This document shows positions 21,739 to 25,903 of a stretch of 64,000 bases of DNA, piece after piece. The stretch covers positions 103,407 through 167,406 of the forward strand of contig CAZIOU010000001.1 in the NCBI GenBank assembly GCA_964540995.1, given 5' to 3'. The notes beneath the pieces are model-generated. The model made no database searches. It had not been told where the DNA came from and saw only the letters and a program-made list of their open reading frames with translations. Position numbers and translations under genes: made by a program. The stretch is from an uncultured Gammaproteobacteria bacterium. Lineage in GTDB: Bacteria > Patescibacteriota > Patescibacteriia > UBA1558 > 2-01-FULL-52-15. Numbering within the stretch: position 1 is the first letter of the stretch; every line of letters begins with the position of its first letter.

Positions 21739-21768
21739 TCAAATACAATCAATTGTGATTGTATTTGA
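21739..21768. promoter_or_regulatory. perfect 13-bp inverted repeat, candidate repressor operator over the transcription start
   Basis: tcaaatacaatca-attg-tgattgtatttga begins 7 nt after the -10 and ends 43 nt before the MFS ATG. Confidence 0.45.
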
Positions 21769-21810: not shown

Positions 21811-23001
21811 ATGTCCCAAAAAACTCTCATCCTCCTAACTGCCTTCGTCGATGTACTCGGCCTCGGCATCGTCATACCGATCTTACCTTTCTATACCCAA
21901 CAGTTTGGCGCCAGCGCCTTGATGGTAACACTATTGTTTACCGTTTTTTCTTTGTGTTCGTTTGTTAGCGCGCCGTTCCTTGGTGCTTGGTCGGATCGTA
22001 TTGGCAGACGTCCGGTGTTGTTACTTAGTATCGCTTCGACGGCCGTGGGTTGGCTGGTCTTCGCTTCTGCGAGCAGTCTAATCGTCTTATACATCGCTCG
22101 CATTATCGATGGTTTGGCAGCTGGAAATTTCCCTATTACTCAGAGCTACTTGGCTGACATTGCCAAAGACGACAAAGAGCGAACTCATAATCTAGGCTTG
22201 ATCGGTGCTATCTTCGGTATCGCTCTGACCGTTGGACCGATGATCGGAGGACTACTGGCTACTTTTGGACCAAGCGTGCCATTTTGGTTTGTCGGTATCC
22301 TGGCCACCATCAATTTCCTCCTGGCTTTACGTTTCTTACCGGAATCACATCATAAGCGCAGCGTGGAGAAAATGTCGGTCAATCCTTTGAAGCCAATTAT
22401 CAATGCCATGCGTGACAAGCTTTTGCTGCCTGGGTTTGTTGCTTTCTTCCTTTTCAGTCTAGCGATTGCCACACAGCAATCAGTCTTCGCACTTTTCCTC
22501 GGGACAGCTTTCAATTACACGGCAGTAGCTACTGGTTGGTTCATGACAGGCGTTGGTATCTTGCTAGCTTTCAACCAAGCCGTGCTACTGAGACGTTTTT
22601 GGCTCAAGAAATTCAAAGAGCCCTTGCTAGAAGTAATAATGTTTATCGGTTTAGCTGCTGGTTTCCTCTTCATGTCGGTTGAAGTTTTGTGGGTGTTTAT
22701 CATTGGATTGATCTTGCTAACCTTCGCTCAATCGGTGTTACGTGTGGTCATGACCAGTCAATTGGTCGCTCTACGACCGGATAGGCGAGGAGAGGTACTT
22801 GGTACTATGACCTCCGTTATGTCGCTTGGTATGGTTATTGGACCTGTCGGCGCTGGTTTACTCTTTGAACGTCATCCCGCAGGACCGTTCTTAGCAGCTT
22901 CAATAATTTCCGTTGGTGCCTTACTTATTATTTTCTATTTCCGGAAACGCTTCACTGCAACTAATTTACCTGATGACGTTGAGCCGGTGGAAACGCTCTA
23001 G
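21811..23001 (+). CDS. MFS transporter (drug/proton antiporter-like)
   Basis: 12 helices. MFS motif A GAWSDRIGRRPVLL. Confidence 0.85.
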   Translation: MSQKTLILLTAFVDVLGLGIVIPILPFYTQQFGASALMVTLLFTVFSLCSFVSAPFLGAWSDRIGRRPVLLLSIASTAVGWLVFASASSLIVLYIARIIDGLAAGNFPITQSYLADIAKDDKERTHNLGLIGAIFGIALTVGPMIGGLLATFGPSVPFWFVGILATINFLLALRFLPESHHKRSVEKMSVNPLKPIINAMRDKLLLPGFVAFFLFSLAIATQQSVFALFLGTAFNYTAVATGWFMTGVGILLAFNQAVLLRRFWLKKFKEPLLEVIMFIGLAAGFLFMSVEVLWVFIIGLILLTFAQSVLRVVMTSQLVALRPDRRGEVLGTMTSVMSLGMVIGPVGAGLLFERHPAGPFLAASIISVGALLIIFYFRKRFTATNLPDDVEPVETL

Positions 23002-23473: not shown

Positions 23474-23487
23474 TTAAGAATTACAAT

Positions 23488-23513
23488 AAAACAGGGATAT
23501 TAATCTCTGTTTT
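23488..23513 (+). repeat. hairpin aaaacag-ggatattaatct-ctgtttt abutting the transposase start codon (copy 2 of the motif at 20960)
   Basis: Near-identical to 20960-20986. The ATG at 23514 follows immediately. Candidate IS left-end or REP-like hairpin. Confidence 0.55.
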
Positions 23514-24131
23514 ATGTTATCAAATAAATATTATCGTCGCAGACCTCGTCGCATGACTGATTTTGATTACAATCAGCCGGGTTGTTATTTCATTACTATC
23601 ACACCACAGAAGCGCTATCCGTATTTCGGAACTATTCAGAATGGTGTTGTTTGTATAAATGCCTTGGGGCAGATCGTGTACAATCAATGGTTGTGGTTAC
23701 AGAAATACCCGCAGATTGAGCTTGATCAGTTCATCGTAATGCCTGATCACGTGCATGGGATTATTTGTATTAAGGACGTCGACGATGTGGGGGACGACCG
23801 ACTCCCCCGGGACGTAGTCCGGCCAACCCTAGGGTTGGCCAAACCAAGAGCAGATGATGATCGGTTGAGTTCGAAAGATCGTCGACGTATGCTTCTCTGC
23901 CGCACAGTCTGCGCCTTCAAGACAACCAGCTCGAAACTTATTCATCTTCAAGGCGAGACCGATTTCCGCTGGAAAAGATCCTATCACGACAAGATAATTC
24001 GCGTAGAAGATGCGATGGAAAAGATTCAAGAATATATTTACAACAATCCCTATAATTGGACGCTTAAATATGGTGACTCGGCTAACCCTAGGGTTAGCCC
24101 GACGGGAGGCGAGTTGGGAGCGCTCGAATGA
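23514..24131 (+). CDS. IS200/IS605-family Y1 HUH transposase-like protein (REP-associated tyrosine transposase-like)
   Basis: HuH motif MPDHVHGII and catalytic-Tyr region FRWKRSYHDKIIR. Contains an apparent ~35-aa insertion that includes a perfect 20-bp palindrome. A second palindrome copy lies at the 3' end. Confidence 0.7.
   Translation: MLSNKYYRRRPRRMTDFDYNQPGCYFITITPQKRYPYFGTIQNGVVCINALGQIVYNQWLWLQKYPQIELDQFIVMPDHVHGIICIKDVDDVGDDRLPRDVVRPTLGLAKPRADDDRLSSKDRRRMLLCRTVCAFKTTSSKLIHLQGETDFRWKRSYHDKIIRVEDAMEKIQEYIYNNPYNWTLKYGDSANPRVSPTGGELGALE
23821..23840. repeat. perfect 20-bp palindrome GGCCAACCCTAGGGTTGGCC inside the transposase ORF
   Basis: Self-complementary. Encodes RPTLGLAK in frame. 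Confidence 0.8.
24080..24099. repeat. perfect 20-bp palindrome GGCTAACCCTAGGGTTAGCC near the transposase 3' end
   Basis: Self-complementary, 2 differences from the 23821 copy. A related split hairpin ggacaaccc...gggttgtcc lies at 24162-24211. Confidence 0.8.
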
Positions 24132-24271
24132 GTTTTATCGCGTATCATTTCGCGTCTCCGCGGTAAGTTCGGACAACCCCTCGCCTCGCTGAAGCTCCGT
24201 CGAAGCGGGTAGGGTTGTCCCTGCCGTGCATCATTGCCCATCACCTGAAATCATATATAATAAACATCTCT

Positions 24272-25903
24272 ATGACCCAATCCCAAGCCCTCACCATCAT
24301 GAAAACCGGTGCCAATATCTTCCTGACCGGAGAGCCAGGCGCCGGCAAATCCTATACTATCAATCAATATGTGGACTATTTACGCCGCCATGGCATCGAT
24401 CCAGCTATCACCGCTTCTACAGGAATAGCGGCTACCCATATCAGCGGCATGACCATTCATAGCTGGAGTGGCATCGGTATCCGAACTTTTTTATCCAATC
24501 GTGACCTCGACACCTTGTCCAGCAATGAGTATTTGGTCAAACGGGTGACTCGCACCAAGGTGCTTATCATCGATGAAGTTTCTATGTTAGCGCCTGAGAC
24601 TATCACCATGGTTGATCAAGTCTGTCGGGAGATCAAGCGCACCGATGAACCTTTCGGCGGTATCCAGATTATTTTCGTCGGCGATTTCTTCCAGCTGCCG
24701 CCGATCAATCGTTCCAATGTCAACGAAACATCGCAAGGTGGCTTCTTCGAAGAAGAACCAGTAATTTTTGCCTATCAATCTCCTGCCTGGGCCAATGCCA
24801 ATCCCTTGGTCTGTTATCTGGACGAACAGTATCGCCAAGACGATCCGGAATATTTGCAAGTCCTCAATGCTATTAGGCGACATGATTTCGGTGAAGCGCA
24901 TCTGAAACACATAGCTAAACGCAAAATTGAAATAGCTAATGCTCCAGCCGATGTAACCAAGCTGTTCTCTCACAATGCCAACGTCGACGCCGTCAATGAC
25001 GCCTTGCTCGATCAGTTACCCGGTAATGCTCATACCTATAGCATGAAGTCTCAAGGCAAAGCTCATATGGTGCAGAATTTACAGAAAGGTTGTCTCTCAC
25101 CTGATACGTTGCAACTCAAAACCGGTGCATCAGTAATGTTTACCAAAAATAATCCTACCGCTGGTTTCGTCAATGGCACGATCGGAGTGGTCGAAGGATT
25201 TGATCCGGTCTATCATTATCCCATCGTCAAGACGAAGCAAGGAGAACGTATCACCGTGGAACCGATGGATTGGACCGTGGAGGACGGTGGCAAGATTCAA
25301 GCCAAGATTACCCAATTCCCTTTGCGTCTAGCTTGGGCCATTACAGTTCACAAAAGTCAGGGTATGAGCCTTGATGAAGCGATTATGGATTTGCGGCAAG
25401 TATTTGAATACGGTCAGGGCTATGTGGCTTTGTCTCGAGTCAAGCGATTGTCAGGATTGTATTTGCTCGGATGGAATGAACGGACCTTTGAAGTGCATCC
25501 GCAGATTTTGCGGCAGGATGAAGCGTTTCGCGATGGTTCATTAGCTGCTGTCAGCACCTTTGAAGCCCTCGTATCGGCCGAGCTGCAGAAGTTACAAGAT
25601 AATTTCCTCTTGGCCTGTGGTGGCAACTTGAAAGCTTCTGGTGAGAAGAAAGCGGTGTCTATCAAGATTAAGTCCAAGAAAGCACCAAGTACTCGCTATG
25701 ATGAGATCCGCAAAACCCATCCCAATGCCAATAGACGCTGGGATCGACAGCAAGATGACCAGCTGACAGCGTTATTCAAAGAAGGTATGGAGATTCCGAT
25801 GTTGATGAATCAAATGGGCCGCAAGAAAACAGCAATTATTTTACGCTTGATCAAATTACGATTGTTGCCAGAAGATTATCTGGAGCACAACGATAGCGTA
25901 TAA
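24272..25903 (+). CDS. PIF1/RecD-family ATP-dependent DNA helicase
   Basis: Walker A GEPGAGKS, DEVSM (Walker B) and later helicase motifs (TVHKSQG). Start placed at ATG 24272 (MTQSQALTIMK) rather than the upstream TTG. Confidence 0.8.
   Translation: MTQSQALTIMKTGANIFLTGEPGAGKSYTINQYVDYLRRHGIDPAITASTGIAATHISGMTIHSWSGIGIRTFLSNRDLDTLSSNEYLVKRVTRTKVLIIDEVSMLAPETITMVDQVCREIKRTDEPFGGIQIIFVGDFFQLPPINRSNVNETSQGGFFEEEPVIFAYQSPAWANANPLVCYLDEQYRQDDPEYLQVLNAIRRHDFGEAHLKHIAKRKIEIANAPADVTKLFSHNANVDAVNDALLDQLPGNAHTYSMKSQGKAHMVQNLQKGCLSPDTLQLKTGASVMFTKNNPTAGFVNGTIGVVEGFDPVYHYPIVKTKQGERITVEPMDWTVEDGGKIQAKITQFPLRLAWAITVHKSQGMSLDEAIMDLRQVFEYGQGYVALSRVKRLSGLYLLGWNERTFEVHPQILRQDEAFRDGSLAAVSTFEALVSAELQKLQDNFLLACGGNLKASGEKKAVSIKIKSKKAPSTRYDEIRKTHPNANRRWDRQQDDQLTALFKEGMEIPMLMNQMGRKKTAIILRLIKLRLLPEDYLEHNDSV

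What the first reader, a model, noticed from the sequence alone, without database searches (positions are those of the whole stretch)
23514..24215. HUH (IS200/RAYT-like) transposase gene carries two perfect 20-bp palindromes inside its reading frame, one within an apparent ~35-aa insertion
Two perfect 20-bp palindromes lie within the ORF. GGCCAACCCTAGGGTTGGCC is at 23821-23840 and GGCTAACCCTAGGGTTAGCC is at 24080-24099. A related split hairpin ggacaaccc...gggttgtcc lies at 24162-24211, just past the stop.

The protein keeps the HuH (MPDHVHGII) and catalytic-Tyr (FRWKRSYHD) blocks. The spacing between them is about 35 residues longer than in the E. coli RAYT sequence I recall, and the first palindrome encodes part of that extra segment (RPTLGLAK).

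One explanation is in-frame colonisation of the transposase gene by its own substrate hairpin (a REP-like element). Another is recognition sites kept inside the gene, giving an unusual autoregulatory or self-targeting arrangement.
Basis: partly seen in the sequence, partly recalled or inferred. Interest (0 to 1): 0.6.

Follow-up and report, generated by a model that had tools for sequence, protein, structure and literature searches.

The report
RAYT transposase gene carrying its own palindromes
A single-copy, transposase-like gene in a candidate-phyla-radiation bacterium carries copies of a palindromic hairpin sequence inside its own reading frame; this layout is real and kept at the DNA level, but it was already described in 2018 for this branch of the REP-associated tyrosine transposases.

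Summary
GGCCAACCCTAGGGTTGGCC (23821-23840) and GGCTAACCCTAGGGTTAGCC (24080-24099) lie in the 205-aa ORF 23514-24131. A split relative follows the stop, at 24171-24220 rather than 24162-24211. The core occurs nowhere else in the 64 kb.

The protein is a REP-associated tyrosine transposase (RAYT/TnpA_REP): HUH at H79/H81, closest solved structure 4ER8.

Palindrome 1 is the centre of a ~113-nt extended palindrome (23776-23888). It encodes residues 88-125, a low-confidence loop 39 aa longer than in E. coli. Palindrome 2 encodes the disordered C-terminal tail.

Across six orthologous loci the stems change only by paired C-G/T-A swaps and are read in two frames. The loop cassette and tail swap as modules. 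One allele has lost the 259 bp between the palindromes.

In 55 of 79 distant relatives a lineage-specific palindrome, often GTAG...CTAC, sits in the same loop, and it often recurs beside the gene.

Quentin et al. 2018 (PMC6006769) described exactly this for subclass 2.4 (Bertels group 4). This is a new, atypical member: no GTAG foot, no dispersed copies seen. Whether the internal copies function is untested.

The parts
23514..24131 (+). RAYT / TnpA_REP-like Y1 HUH gene, 205 aa. It is single-copy and sits between a DUF1761 gene and a PIF1 helicase gene.
   Evidence: ORF. NCBIfam REP_Tyr_transpos scores 55.8 bits, below its cut-off of 80. Pfam Y1_Tnp scores 20.5, below its cut-off of 23. A family profile hits only 4er8 in the PDB. 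The Foldseek top hit is 4er8_A. The gene is syntenic in L001-L005.
23748..23756 (+). HUH motif codons (H79-V80-H81)
   Evidence: H79 and H81 are invariant in alignments A1, A3 and A4. The profile aligns the PDHVH block with PEHMH of 4er8; HUH = H59-M60-H61 there.
24033..24035 (+). Codon of Y174, the inferred catalytic tyrosine (EYIYNNP). N178 corresponds to N119 of E. coli TnpA_REP.
   Evidence: Profile alignment to 4er8. Y115, N119 and H123 are active-site residues in Messing 2012. Y174 and N178 are invariant in A4.
23776..23888 (.). In-frame extended palindromic element (REPIN-like). It has 11-nt perfect terminal inverted repeats, ACGTCGACGAT (23776-23786) and ATCGTCGACGT (23878-23888), around palindrome 1. 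It encodes residues 88-125, the variable loop.
   Evidence: Inverted repeat I7. The ssDNA fold has z -4.3; the L001 version folds as one ~105-nt hairpin with z -7.9. pLDDT is low across residues ~87-126. The interior is 57% identical to L001, while the rest of the ORF is 93-97% identical.
23821..23840 (.). Palindrome 1, GGCCAACCCTAGGGTTGGCC. It encodes R103-A109 (RPTLGLA).
   Evidence: Orthologues carry GGTCAACCCTAGGGTTGACC, read in another frame as SVNPRVD. Residues 102-110 have pLDDT below 50.
24080..24099 (.). Palindrome 2, GGCTAACCCTAGGGTTAGCC. It lies in the C-terminal tail coding region (residues 189-196, SANPRVSP).
   Evidence: The variants GGTTAACCCTAGGGTTAACC and GGCCAACCCGAGGGTTGGCC occur in orthologues. 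Tail residues 190-205 have pLDDT below 50.
24171..24220 (.). Third, split copy downstream of the stop. GGACAACCC (24171-24179) pairs with GGGTTGTCC (24212-24220) around a 32-nt interior. A GTAG abuts the right arm.
   Evidence: It is present in L001-L004 and absent from L005.
24144..24235 (.). Segment bounded by the direct repeat ATCATT (24144-24149 and 24230-24235). One repeat plus the 80 nt between the two copies, including the third hairpin, is missing from orthologue L005 (an 86-bp indel).
   Evidence: (tail sequences) read.
23486..23515 (+). AT-rich hairpin AAAACAGGGAT/ATCTCTGTTTT. Its 3' arm runs into the ATG at 23514. It is unrelated in sequence to the AACCC palindromes and is conserved in all four aligned loci.
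   Evidence: Inverted repeat I4. Alignment A2. The ssDNA fold is -8.9 kcal/mol with z -6.6.

Best explanation
The gene encodes a REP-associated tyrosine transposase of the branch called subclass 2.4 by Quentin et al. 2018 and group 4 by Bertels et al. 2017. Members of this branch typically carry copies of their own flanking hairpin repeat inside the reading frame, in the loop between the HUH strand (beta3) and helix alphaC.

Three copies of a lineage-specific palindrome sit at this locus:
- One is the centre of a ~113-nt extended palindrome in that loop.
- One lies in the coding region of the disordered C-terminal tail.
- One is a split copy after the stop codon.

The protein tolerates the copies because they encode peripheral, unstructured segments. 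Any frame without a stop codon is acceptable.

The palindromes persist through nucleic-acid-level processes, not through selection on the peptide. Candidate processes are hairpin formation on single-stranded DNA, repeated RAYT-mediated or recombinational re-insertion or replacement, and correction between the two arms. As a side effect they act as local recombination breakpoints: modules swap and deletions occur.

Shown here: the anatomy, family membership by similarity, conservation of the palindrome across frames, compensatory changes, mosaicism, the deletion allele, and the family-wide recurrence.

Inferred: that the palindromes are the protein's cognate substrate, and that they arrived and are renewed through its activity.
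For: Identity of the protein
- HUH and Y174/N178 are conserved.
- A family profile hits only E. coli TnpA_REP 4er8 in the PDB, E 1.5e-6.
- The AF2 model (pLDDT 80.6) has 4er8_A as its best Foldseek hit, followed by the IS608 and ISDra2 TnpA structures.
- Many relatives are named 'REP element-mobilizing transposase RayT' by JGI.

Placement of the palindromes
- Both fall in low-confidence segments: residues 102-110 and 190-205 have pLDDT below 50.

DNA-level maintenance
- Across 11 palindrome copies from 6 orthologous loci, 100% of stem cells pair. The two variable pairs change only as C-G to T-A double changes. Only 3 of 500 shuffles score as high.
- The same palindrome is read as RPTLGLA in the window and as SVNPRVD in L001.

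Turnover
- The cassette interior is 57% identical between the window and L001, while the flanking ORF is 97% and 93% identical.
- Against L003 the cassette is 96% identical while the ORF is 90% and the tail is 77%.
- L002 has an exact palindrome 1 to palindrome 2 deletion.
- L005 lacks the 86-bp segment that holds the third hairpin.

Family-wide pattern
- 55 of 79 relatives at 30-40% identity carry a perfect hairpin of at least 8 bp between HUH and Tyr. Density is 4.03 per kb there against 0.36 per kb elsewhere in the loci, and the median arm is 12 bp.
- 30 of them have a GT[AG]G foot. 24 have the same arm in a hairpin beside the gene.
- L006 carries GTAGGGAACGGTCGCGACCGTTCCCTAC in the loop, plus copies upstream and downstream.

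Literature
[quoted passage not shown] The distance here is 93 aa.
Against: - The window's palindromes are not canonical REPs. They have no GT[AG]G...C[TC]AC double foot; a CTAG sits at the centre instead. A GTAG lies 3 nt upstream of palindrome 1 in the window-type alleles only.
- No copy lies upstream of the gene. No other copy exists in the remaining ~63.5 kb, so a genome-wide repeat population is not demonstrated.
- The curated models are not reached: NCBIfam 55.8 bits against a cut-off of 80, and Pfam 20.5 against 23.
- Subclass membership rests on similarity to relatives that show the subclass hallmarks, not on a phylogeny with reference sequences.
- Binding or cleavage of these hairpins by this protein is untested.
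- The strict preservation of perfect stems, while the flanks are replaced, could equally mean the copies have a function rather than being tolerated passengers.
Confidence: 0.78

Rival explanations
1. The internal palindromes are kept because they do something. One option is autoregulation: the protein binds its own gene's hairpins on ssDNA or mRNA, or the hairpins limit translation or mRNA life. Another is that they serve as a protected 'master copy' that keeps the hairpin and its enzyme co-inherited.
For: Perfect stems are preserved by compensatory changes, while the surrounding loop sequence is replaced or diverged. The same loop position is occupied in 55 of 79 distant relatives by lineage-specific palindromes. 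Here there is no dispersed population that could keep re-seeding the gene.
Against: About 30% of relatives lack a detectable internal hairpin (for example L007). Position and frame vary: offsets run 24-116 nt, and frames split 11 to 7. This pattern fits repeated insertion into the only permissive site. Natural alleles delete or swap the copies. No expression or binding data exist. Quentin 2018 reads them as tolerated insertions.
Confidence: 0.15
2. The segment 23787-23877 is an invertible or otherwise switchable cassette, bounded by the 11-bp inverted repeats. It would give alternative loop peptides, as in phase or antigenic variation.
For: Perfect 11-nt inverted repeats bound the segment. Two very different cassette versions exist in otherwise 93-97% identical genes. 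The window cassette aligns better to the reverse complement of the L001 cassette than to its forward strand: score 41 against 20, with half-site z scores of 2.2 and 2.8 against 1.4 and 0.7.
Against: Even in reverse complement the two versions are far from identical, so a simple flip does not interconvert them. Any quasi-palindrome aligns partly to its own reverse complement. No recombinase gene adjoins the locus. The loop is predicted to be disordered and far from the active surface (Quentin 2018).
Confidence: 0.04
3. The palindromes are coincidental, or by-products of codon or peptide constraints, or artefacts of assembly.
For: Only three copies exist, all within 400 bp. The sequence GGCCAACCCTAGGGTTGGCC also occurs in unrelated organisms as ordinary terminator-like hairpins.
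Against: 0 of 100 shuffles give two copies of the core. The peptide differs between alleles while the palindrome is kept. Stem changes are compensatory. The same architecture appears in five independent assemblies and, with other sequences, in 55 of 79 relatives.
Confidence: 0.01

Closest known systems
TnpA_REP subclass 2.4 (Quentin et al. 2018, BMC Genomics 19:475), equivalent to RAYT group 4 (Bertels et al. 2017)
   Same: - A Y1 HUH protein with an enlarged, highly variable insertion between beta3 and alphaC. The HuH-Y distance is 93 aa here; the subclass median is 88.
- Hairpin repeats of the flanking type are inserted in frame between HuH and Y.
- The insertion is predicted to be peripheral.
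- There is no conserved C-terminal extension domain.
- The associated repeats have low genomic abundance: about 14 per replicon for group 4.
- Relatives occur scattered across many phyla, including CPR.
   Different: - The palindromes lack the GT[AG]G foot or 'double foot' and are only 20 bp, with a CTAG centre.
- No copy lies upstream of the gene.
- A second copy lies inside the ORF in the C-terminal tail; this is seen in only 5 of 79 relatives.
- No dispersed copies are found in 64 kb.
- Placement in the subclass has not been tested by phylogeny.
E. coli TnpA_REP / RAYT (PDB 4ER8; Messing 2012, Ton-Hoang 2012). Quentin subclass 2.2, Bertels group 2.
   Same: It is the best structural and the only sequence-profile match among solved structures. 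The HUH motif, the catalytic Tyr in the YIxxNP helix and the Asn ligand are shared. The gene is single-copy, and hairpin repeats are associated with it.
   Different: - Similarity is remote: 17% identity in the Foldseek alignment, and detectable by sequence only with a family profile (E 1.5e-6).
- The E. coli loop is 39 aa shorter and holds no repeat.
- H123 of E. coli is W182 here.
- E. coli REPs are imperfect, GTAG-footed, extragenic and present in hundreds of copies.
IS200/IS605 TnpA
   Same: The fold and catalytic motifs are shared. The enzymes recognise hairpins on single-stranded DNA. IS200 has a stem-loop that occludes its ribosome-binding site (own knowledge); here a hairpin overlaps the start codon.
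   Different: The gene is syntenic and single-copy in related genomes and is not a mobile insertion. There are no left-end or right-end subterminal hairpins bounding an element. The hairpins lie inside the ORF.
Rickettsia palindromic elements, and REPs found inside genes (Ogata 2000, own knowledge; Di Nocera 2013, PMC3733652)
   Same: Short palindromic repeats are inserted in frame into protein-coding genes and are tolerated in surface loops.
   Different: Those elements are spread over many unrelated genes. Here the only gene affected in 64 kb is the gene of the putative mobilising enzyme itself.

Membership tests
RAYT / TnpA_REP (class 2 Y1 HUH endonucleases) | HUH motif on beta3 | tested here: met
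   H79-V-H81 is invariant in A1, A3 and A4. It aligns to the PEHMH block of 4er8.
RAYT / TnpA_REP (class 2 Y1 HUH endonucleases) | Single catalytic Tyr on helix alphaD in a YIxxNP context, with the Asn metal ligand | tested here: met
   Y174 and N178 align to Y115 and N119 of 4er8 and are invariant in A4. H123 of E. coli is W182 here.
RAYT / TnpA_REP (class 2 Y1 HUH endonucleases) | Fold of TnpA_REP | tested here: met
   The AF2 model has pLDDT 80.6. The Foldseek top hit is 4er8_A (E 2.9e-6, TM 0.44/0.53), followed by the IS608, IS200 and ISDra2 TnpA structures.
RAYT / TnpA_REP (class 2 Y1 HUH endonucleases) | Score above the curated family cut-off (NCBIfam NF047646; Pfam PF01797) | tested here: not met
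   NCBIfam scores 55.8 bits against a cut-off of 80. Pfam scores 20.5 against 23. The match is split by the insertion, and most close relatives also lack a Pfam call.
RAYT / TnpA_REP (class 2 Y1 HUH endonucleases) | Gene flanked by cognate hairpin repeats on both sides (REPtron) | tested here: inconclusive
   Copies are present inside the gene and downstream of it. Upstream there is only an unrelated AT-rich hairpin.
RAYT / TnpA_REP (class 2 Y1 HUH endonucleases) | The same hairpin is dispersed through the genome (a REP/REPIN population) | tested here: not met
   There are no further copies in the 64-kb window. The rest of the genome is not available. The metagenome scan returned only unrelated organisms.
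RAYT / TnpA_REP (class 2 Y1 HUH endonucleases) | GT[AG]G tetranucleotide at the foot of the hairpin | tested here: not met
   Palindromes 1 and 2 have no foot. A GTAG lies 3 nt 5' of palindrome 1 in the window, L003 and L002 but not in L001, L004 or L005. A GTAG abuts the right arm of the third hairpin.
RAYT / TnpA_REP (class 2 Y1 HUH endonucleases) | Binds and cleaves its hairpin as single-stranded DNA | not testable with these tools
   This needs biochemistry.
TnpA_REP subclass 2.4 (Quentin 2018) / RAYT group 4 (Bertels 2017) | Variable insertion domain between beta3 and alphaC; long HuH-Y distance (median 88 aa) | tested here: met
   H81 to Y174 is 93 aa. Residues ~87-126 have low pLDDT. 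The loop varies in length and sequence across A1 and A4.
TnpA_REP subclass 2.4 (Quentin 2018) / RAYT group 4 (Bertels 2017) | Hairpin repeat of the flanking type inserted in frame between HuH and Y | tested here: met
   Palindrome 1 (23821-23840) encodes residues 103-109, and related copies lie at 24080 and 24171. The same is seen in 55 of 79 relatives.
TnpA_REP subclass 2.4 (Quentin 2018) / RAYT group 4 (Bertels 2017) | Clusters with reference subclass 2.4 / group 4 sequences in a phylogeny or profile assignment | not tested
   The reference sequences are not held here. Indirect evidence: the nearest relatives (30-40% identity) show double-foot GTAG...CTAC repeats and internal repeats.
IS200/IS605 insertion sequence | A mobile unit in variable genomic contexts, usually multi-copy, bounded by left-end and right-end hairpins | tested here: not met
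   L001, L002 and L004 show DUF1761 immediately upstream of the gene; L003 and L005 are short contigs whose flanking genes carry no domain call, though L003 aligns with the window through both flanks. There is one copy in 64 kb.
In-frame palindromic elements of the Rickettsia RPE / intragenic REP type | The same palindromic element is inserted in many unrelated genes | tested here: not met
   Only this gene carries it in the window.

The most novel reading that the evidence does not exclude
The in-frame palindromes are not passive passengers. They would be a maintained cis element of the RAYT gene: either a binding or cleavage site through which the enzyme limits its own expression or inactivates its own gene (as in the palindrome 1 to palindrome 2 deletion allele), or a protected master copy from which the hairpin family can be regenerated. 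This would explain three things. Perfect stems survive by compensatory change in a genome with no visible dispersed copies. The surrounding loop is replaced wholesale. Most of this branch of the family keeps a lineage-specific palindrome in the same loop.
Probability: 0.15. Interest if true: 0.6.

Novelty: new member of a known kind. Interest (0 to 1): 0.28.

Why it matters
The general phenomenon, a RAYT gene carrying its own repeat in frame, is published. The find does not open a new category.

Its value is as a clean natural series. Six orthologous loci from a small-genome Patescibacteria lineage show the internal hairpins being kept by compensatory change, read in two frames, swapped as modules and used as deletion endpoints. 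No dispersed repeat population is seen in the 64 kb available, though the rest of the genome could not be checked.

That makes this lineage a simple system for an open question about RAYTs: are the gene-internal repeats tolerated junk or working parts? More broadly, what do these domesticated transposases do when no repeat family is present?

The family scan also explains a recurrent peptide signature of these proteins. 'VGA...APT' is the translation of GTAGGGGC...GCCCCTAC. This is useful for annotation, because the insertion pushes many members below the Pfam and NCBIfam cut-offs.

Tried and rejected
- phmmer of the single protein against PDB sequences found only noise. A 68-sequence profile was needed to reach 4er8.
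- The metagenome-contig scan for GGYYAACCCTAGGGTTRRCC returned 66 loci, none related to the window. Most are GGTTAACCCTAGGGTTAACC inside telomere-like GGGTTA tracts from a few samples. Others are terminator-like hairpins in high-GC organisms. None has a RAYT hit or any similarity to the window. The scan therefore says nothing about dispersal in the source genome.
- The genome-contig scan did not recover the window's own organism; the best hit was 40% identical. A genome-wide count of the palindrome was therefore impossible.
- A simple flip of the loop cassette between alleles was tested and is not adequately supported. The reverse complement aligns better, but weakly.
- The promoter/terminator scan called none of the three AACCC hairpins a terminator-like site; its only call near the 3' end (24110-24126) is a 5-bp stem overlapping the stop codon.
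That position is F/Y in the family and aligns to F98 of E. coli (PRFWEH), not to Y115.
- An RNA-level reading was considered. The absence of any G-T intermediate in the stems leans towards DNA, but the sample is too small to decide.
Full report
**1. What is in the sequence**

The ORF 23514-24131 (+) encodes 205 aa. GGCCAACCCTAGGGTTGGCC is at 23821-23840 and GGCTAACCCTAGGGTTAGCC is at 24080-24099, exactly as reported.

The 12-nt core AACCCTAGGGTT occurs only at these two sites in the 64-kb window. Chance expectation is 0.08, and none of 100 shuffles gave two. A looser AACCC...GGGTT search adds nothing related. Among all perfect hairpins in the window with stems of at least 9 bp, no other belongs to this sequence family.

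The third, split copy is GGACAACCC 24171-24179 paired with GGGTTGTCC 24212-24220.

Palindrome 1 is the centre of a larger symmetrical element. Perfect 11-nt inverted repeats ACGTCGACGAT (23776-23786) and ATCGTCGACGT (23878-23888) bound it. As single-stranded DNA the 113-nt segment folds with z -4.3. The version in orthologue L001 folds as one continuous ~105-nt hairpin with z -7.9.

**2. What the protein is**

Curated models give only sub-threshold matches. Pfam Y1_Tnp scores 20.5 bits against a cut-off of 23. NCBIfam 'REP-associated tyrosine transposase' scores 55.8 bits against a cut-off of 80.

A profile search shows a very large family: 37,520 cluster representatives at E <= 0.001. JGI names many members 'REP element-mobilizing transposase RayT'.

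A 68-sequence profile hits only one solved protein by sequence, E. coli TnpA_REP (4ER8, E 1.5e-6). The AlphaFold model (mean pLDDT 80.6) has 4er8_A as its best Foldseek match, followed by the IS608, IS200 and ISDra2 transposases.

H79 and H81 form the HUH motif. The profile alignment puts window EYIYNNP on DYIYINP of 4ER8. Y115, N119 and H123 are active-site residues there (Messing 2012). The catalytic tyrosine is therefore Y174, which is invariant in the family alignment.

H81 to Y174 is 93 aa, against 54 aa in E. coli. The 39 extra residues correspond to residues 88-125, which the extended palindrome encodes.

In the model the core is confident. The 10-residue blocks covering residues 21-80 and 131-180 average pLDDT 94-98, whereas residues ~87-126 and 190-205 are low. 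Residues 102-110 and 190-205 fall below 50. These are precisely the stretches encoded by palindrome 1 (R103-A109) and palindrome 2 (residues 189-196).

**3. Context and organism**

The gene lies between a DUF1761 gene and a PIF1-family helicase gene.

The helicase is 100% identical to an NCBI protein on a 179-kb contig. Its nearest named relatives are Candidatus Komeilibacteria and other Patescibacteria, so the window comes from a CPR bacterium.

Five metagenome contigs carry orthologues at 81-89% protein identity. Those long enough to show flanking genes have the same neighbours. The gene is therefore a resident single-copy gene and not a recently mobile insertion sequence. The architecture is not an assembly artefact of one data set.

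**4. Evidence that the DNA, not the peptide, is maintained**

- **Different frames.** In L001, L004 and L005 the loop peptide is completely different: IPSPDSLRSVNPRVDQTESGEVAQSQSY replaces VGDDRLPRDVVRPTLGLAKPRADDDRLSSKD. The palindrome is nevertheless present as GGTCAACCCTAGGGTTGACC and is read one base out of register, as SVNPRVD instead of RPTLGLA. The third register would read the central TAG as a stop codon.
- **Compensatory changes.** Over the 11 palindrome copies in the six loci, every stem position pairs. The two variable pairs change only by double C-G to T-A substitutions, with no one-sided or G-T states. Only 3 of 500 shuffles score as high. The sample is small, but the direction is clear.
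- **Mosaic alleles.** Window against L001: the ORF is 97% identical 5' of the cassette and 93% 3' of it, and the tail plus 3' flank are 100% identical, yet the cassette interior is only 57% identical. Window against L003: the ORF is 89-90% identical, but the cassette is 96% and the palindrome 2-to-stop segment is only 77%. The loop cassette and the tail are thus exchanged as modules, independently of the gene backbone.
- **Breakpoints at the palindromes.** L002 carries an exact deletion joining the left flank of palindrome 1 to palindrome 2. The gene is truncated to 140 aa, and the new tail is the +1 frame of the 3' region. L005 lacks an 86-bp segment containing the third hairpin; in the window this segment is bounded by the direct repeat ATCATT (24144-24149 and 24230-24235). 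L003 has a further short deletion just after the third hairpin's right arm.

**5. The pattern is family-wide**

The 40%-identical relative in L006 carries a different 28-bp perfect palindrome, GTAGGGAACGGTCGCGACCGTTCCCTAC, at the same place in the loop. Shorter copies lie upstream and downstream of the gene.

A degenerate-pattern scan of GTDB species representatives returned 80 loci at 30-40% identity from many phyla. Of the 79 analysable loci:

- 55 have a perfect hairpin of at least 8 bp between the HUH and Tyr codons. The median offset is 43 nt after the first His codon and the median arm is 12 bp.
- Hairpin density there is 4.03 per kb, against 0.36 per kb in the loci beyond the gene.
- 30 have a GT[AG]G foot.
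- 24 have the same inner arm in another hairpin next to the gene, and 5 also have it farther away.
- Both stop-free frames of the GTAG foot are used, 11 to 7.
- 5 also have a hairpin in the last 90 nt of the ORF, as palindrome 2 does here.

Translating GTAGGGGC...GCCCCTAC explains the recurrent 'VGA...APT' peptide of these proteins.

**6. Comparison with what is known**

Quentin et al. 2018 (PMC6006769) define TnpA_REP subclass 2.4, to which they assign the RAYT group 4 sequences of Bertels et al. 2017. They describe:

- a highly variable insertion domain between beta3 and alphaC;
- a median HuH-Y distance of 88 aa;
- canonical and 'double foot' REPs;

Bertels et al. report that group 4 flanking 16-mers occur only about 14 times per replicon. 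Di Nocera et al. 2013 note REPtrons in species that lack REP families, and REPs inside other genes.

The window's gene fits the subclass by similarity and architecture, but it is atypical in four respects:

- The palindromes are short and have no GT[AG]G foot; a CTAG sits at the centre.
- No copy lies upstream of the gene.
- A second copy lies inside the ORF tail.
- No dispersed copies appear in 64 kb.

A scan of JGI metagenomes for the palindrome returned only unrelated organisms, so it is uninformative.

**7. Mechanism**

*Best-supported explanation.* The hairpins are this RAYT's cognate repeat. The copies in the ORF sit in the two parts of the protein that tolerate arbitrary sequence. They are renewed or kept symmetrical by DNA-level processes such as re-insertion or replacement, correction between arms, and recombination. 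As a by-product they make the locus recombination-prone.

*Shown.* The anatomy, the DNA-level conservation, the mosaicism, the deletion allele and the family-wide recurrence.

*Inferred.* Cognate recognition, and the enzyme's role in placing the copies.

*Main rival.* The internal copies could be functional, either autoregulatory or a protected master copy. This is not excluded. It gains some weight from the strict preservation of perfect stems in a genome with no visible dispersed copies. It loses weight because about 30% of relatives lack an internal hairpin, and because natural alleles delete or swap the copies.

*Minor rival.* A switchable or invertible cassette has only weak support.

**8. 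Verdict**

The kind is already known. This is a new, somewhat atypical member, and it comes with an informative set of natural alleles.

Noticed in passing
window 23486-23515: An AT-rich hairpin (AAAACAGGGAT/ATCTCTGTTTT; ssDNA fold -8.9 kcal/mol, z -6.6) has a 3' arm that runs into the ATG of the RAYT gene. No clear Shine-Dalgarno sequence lies in front of the ATG. It is conserved in all four aligned loci. It could terminate the upstream DUF1761 gene, or occlude the start codon in the way the IS200 stem-loop does.
   Followed up: partly
window 24144-24235 versus L005:586-740: Orthologue L005 lacks an 86-bp segment that contains the third hairpin. In the window the segment is bounded by the 6-nt direct repeat ATCATT. 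This is either a microhomology deletion or an insertion with a duplicated target.
   Followed up: partly
L002:1625-2047: A natural allele has exactly the 259 bp between palindrome 1 and palindrome 2 deleted. The gene is truncated to 140 aa, with a frame-shifted tail.
   Followed up: yes
L010-L089 (for example L013, L035, L049, L053): The recurrent loop peptide 'VGA...APT' of this protein family (with variants such as GAQFIAP and GAINRAPT) is the translation of GTAGGGGC...GCCCCTAC-type palindromes. The insertion probably explains why many members fall below the Pfam and NCBIfam cut-offs.
   Followed up: partly
L031:6001-6603 and L032:6001-6588: Tandem peptide repeats lie in the loop: RAPTLRRAPTLRRAPTVERAPTVE, and NCAPTNCAPTNCAPTN. 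They look like tandem duplications of half-palindromes inside the ORF. L032 also has arrays of two different palindromes on both sides of the gene.
   Followed up: no
L006:920-997: A 26-aa fragment of a second RAYT (MNYITFAVMPNHVHGIVCIAYVNYEQ) lies just downstream of the intact gene. Copies of the same palindrome flank the locus at 5' and 3' ends (upstream of the intact gene and at 1006-1025, just past the fragment).
   Followed up: no
window 24272-25900: The downstream gene is a PIF1-family helicase. It is 100% identical to an NCBI protein on a 179,268-bp contig. Its closest named relatives are Candidatus Komeilibacteria and other Patescibacteria, which places the window in the CPR.
   Followed up: partly
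L090-L155 (for example L093:2014-2179, L107, L153): In a few JGI metagenomes the palindrome GGTTAACCCTAGGGTTAACC is abundant inside telomere-like GGGTTA/CCCTAA tracts. These contigs show no similarity to the window and carry no RAYT hit, and are unrelated to this finding.
   Followed up: partly
window 21739-21768: A perfect hairpin with a 13-bp stem (TCAAATACAATCAATTGTGATTGTATTTGA) lies just upstream of the MFS transporter gene (21811-23001). It is unrelated to the AACCC family.
   Followed up: no
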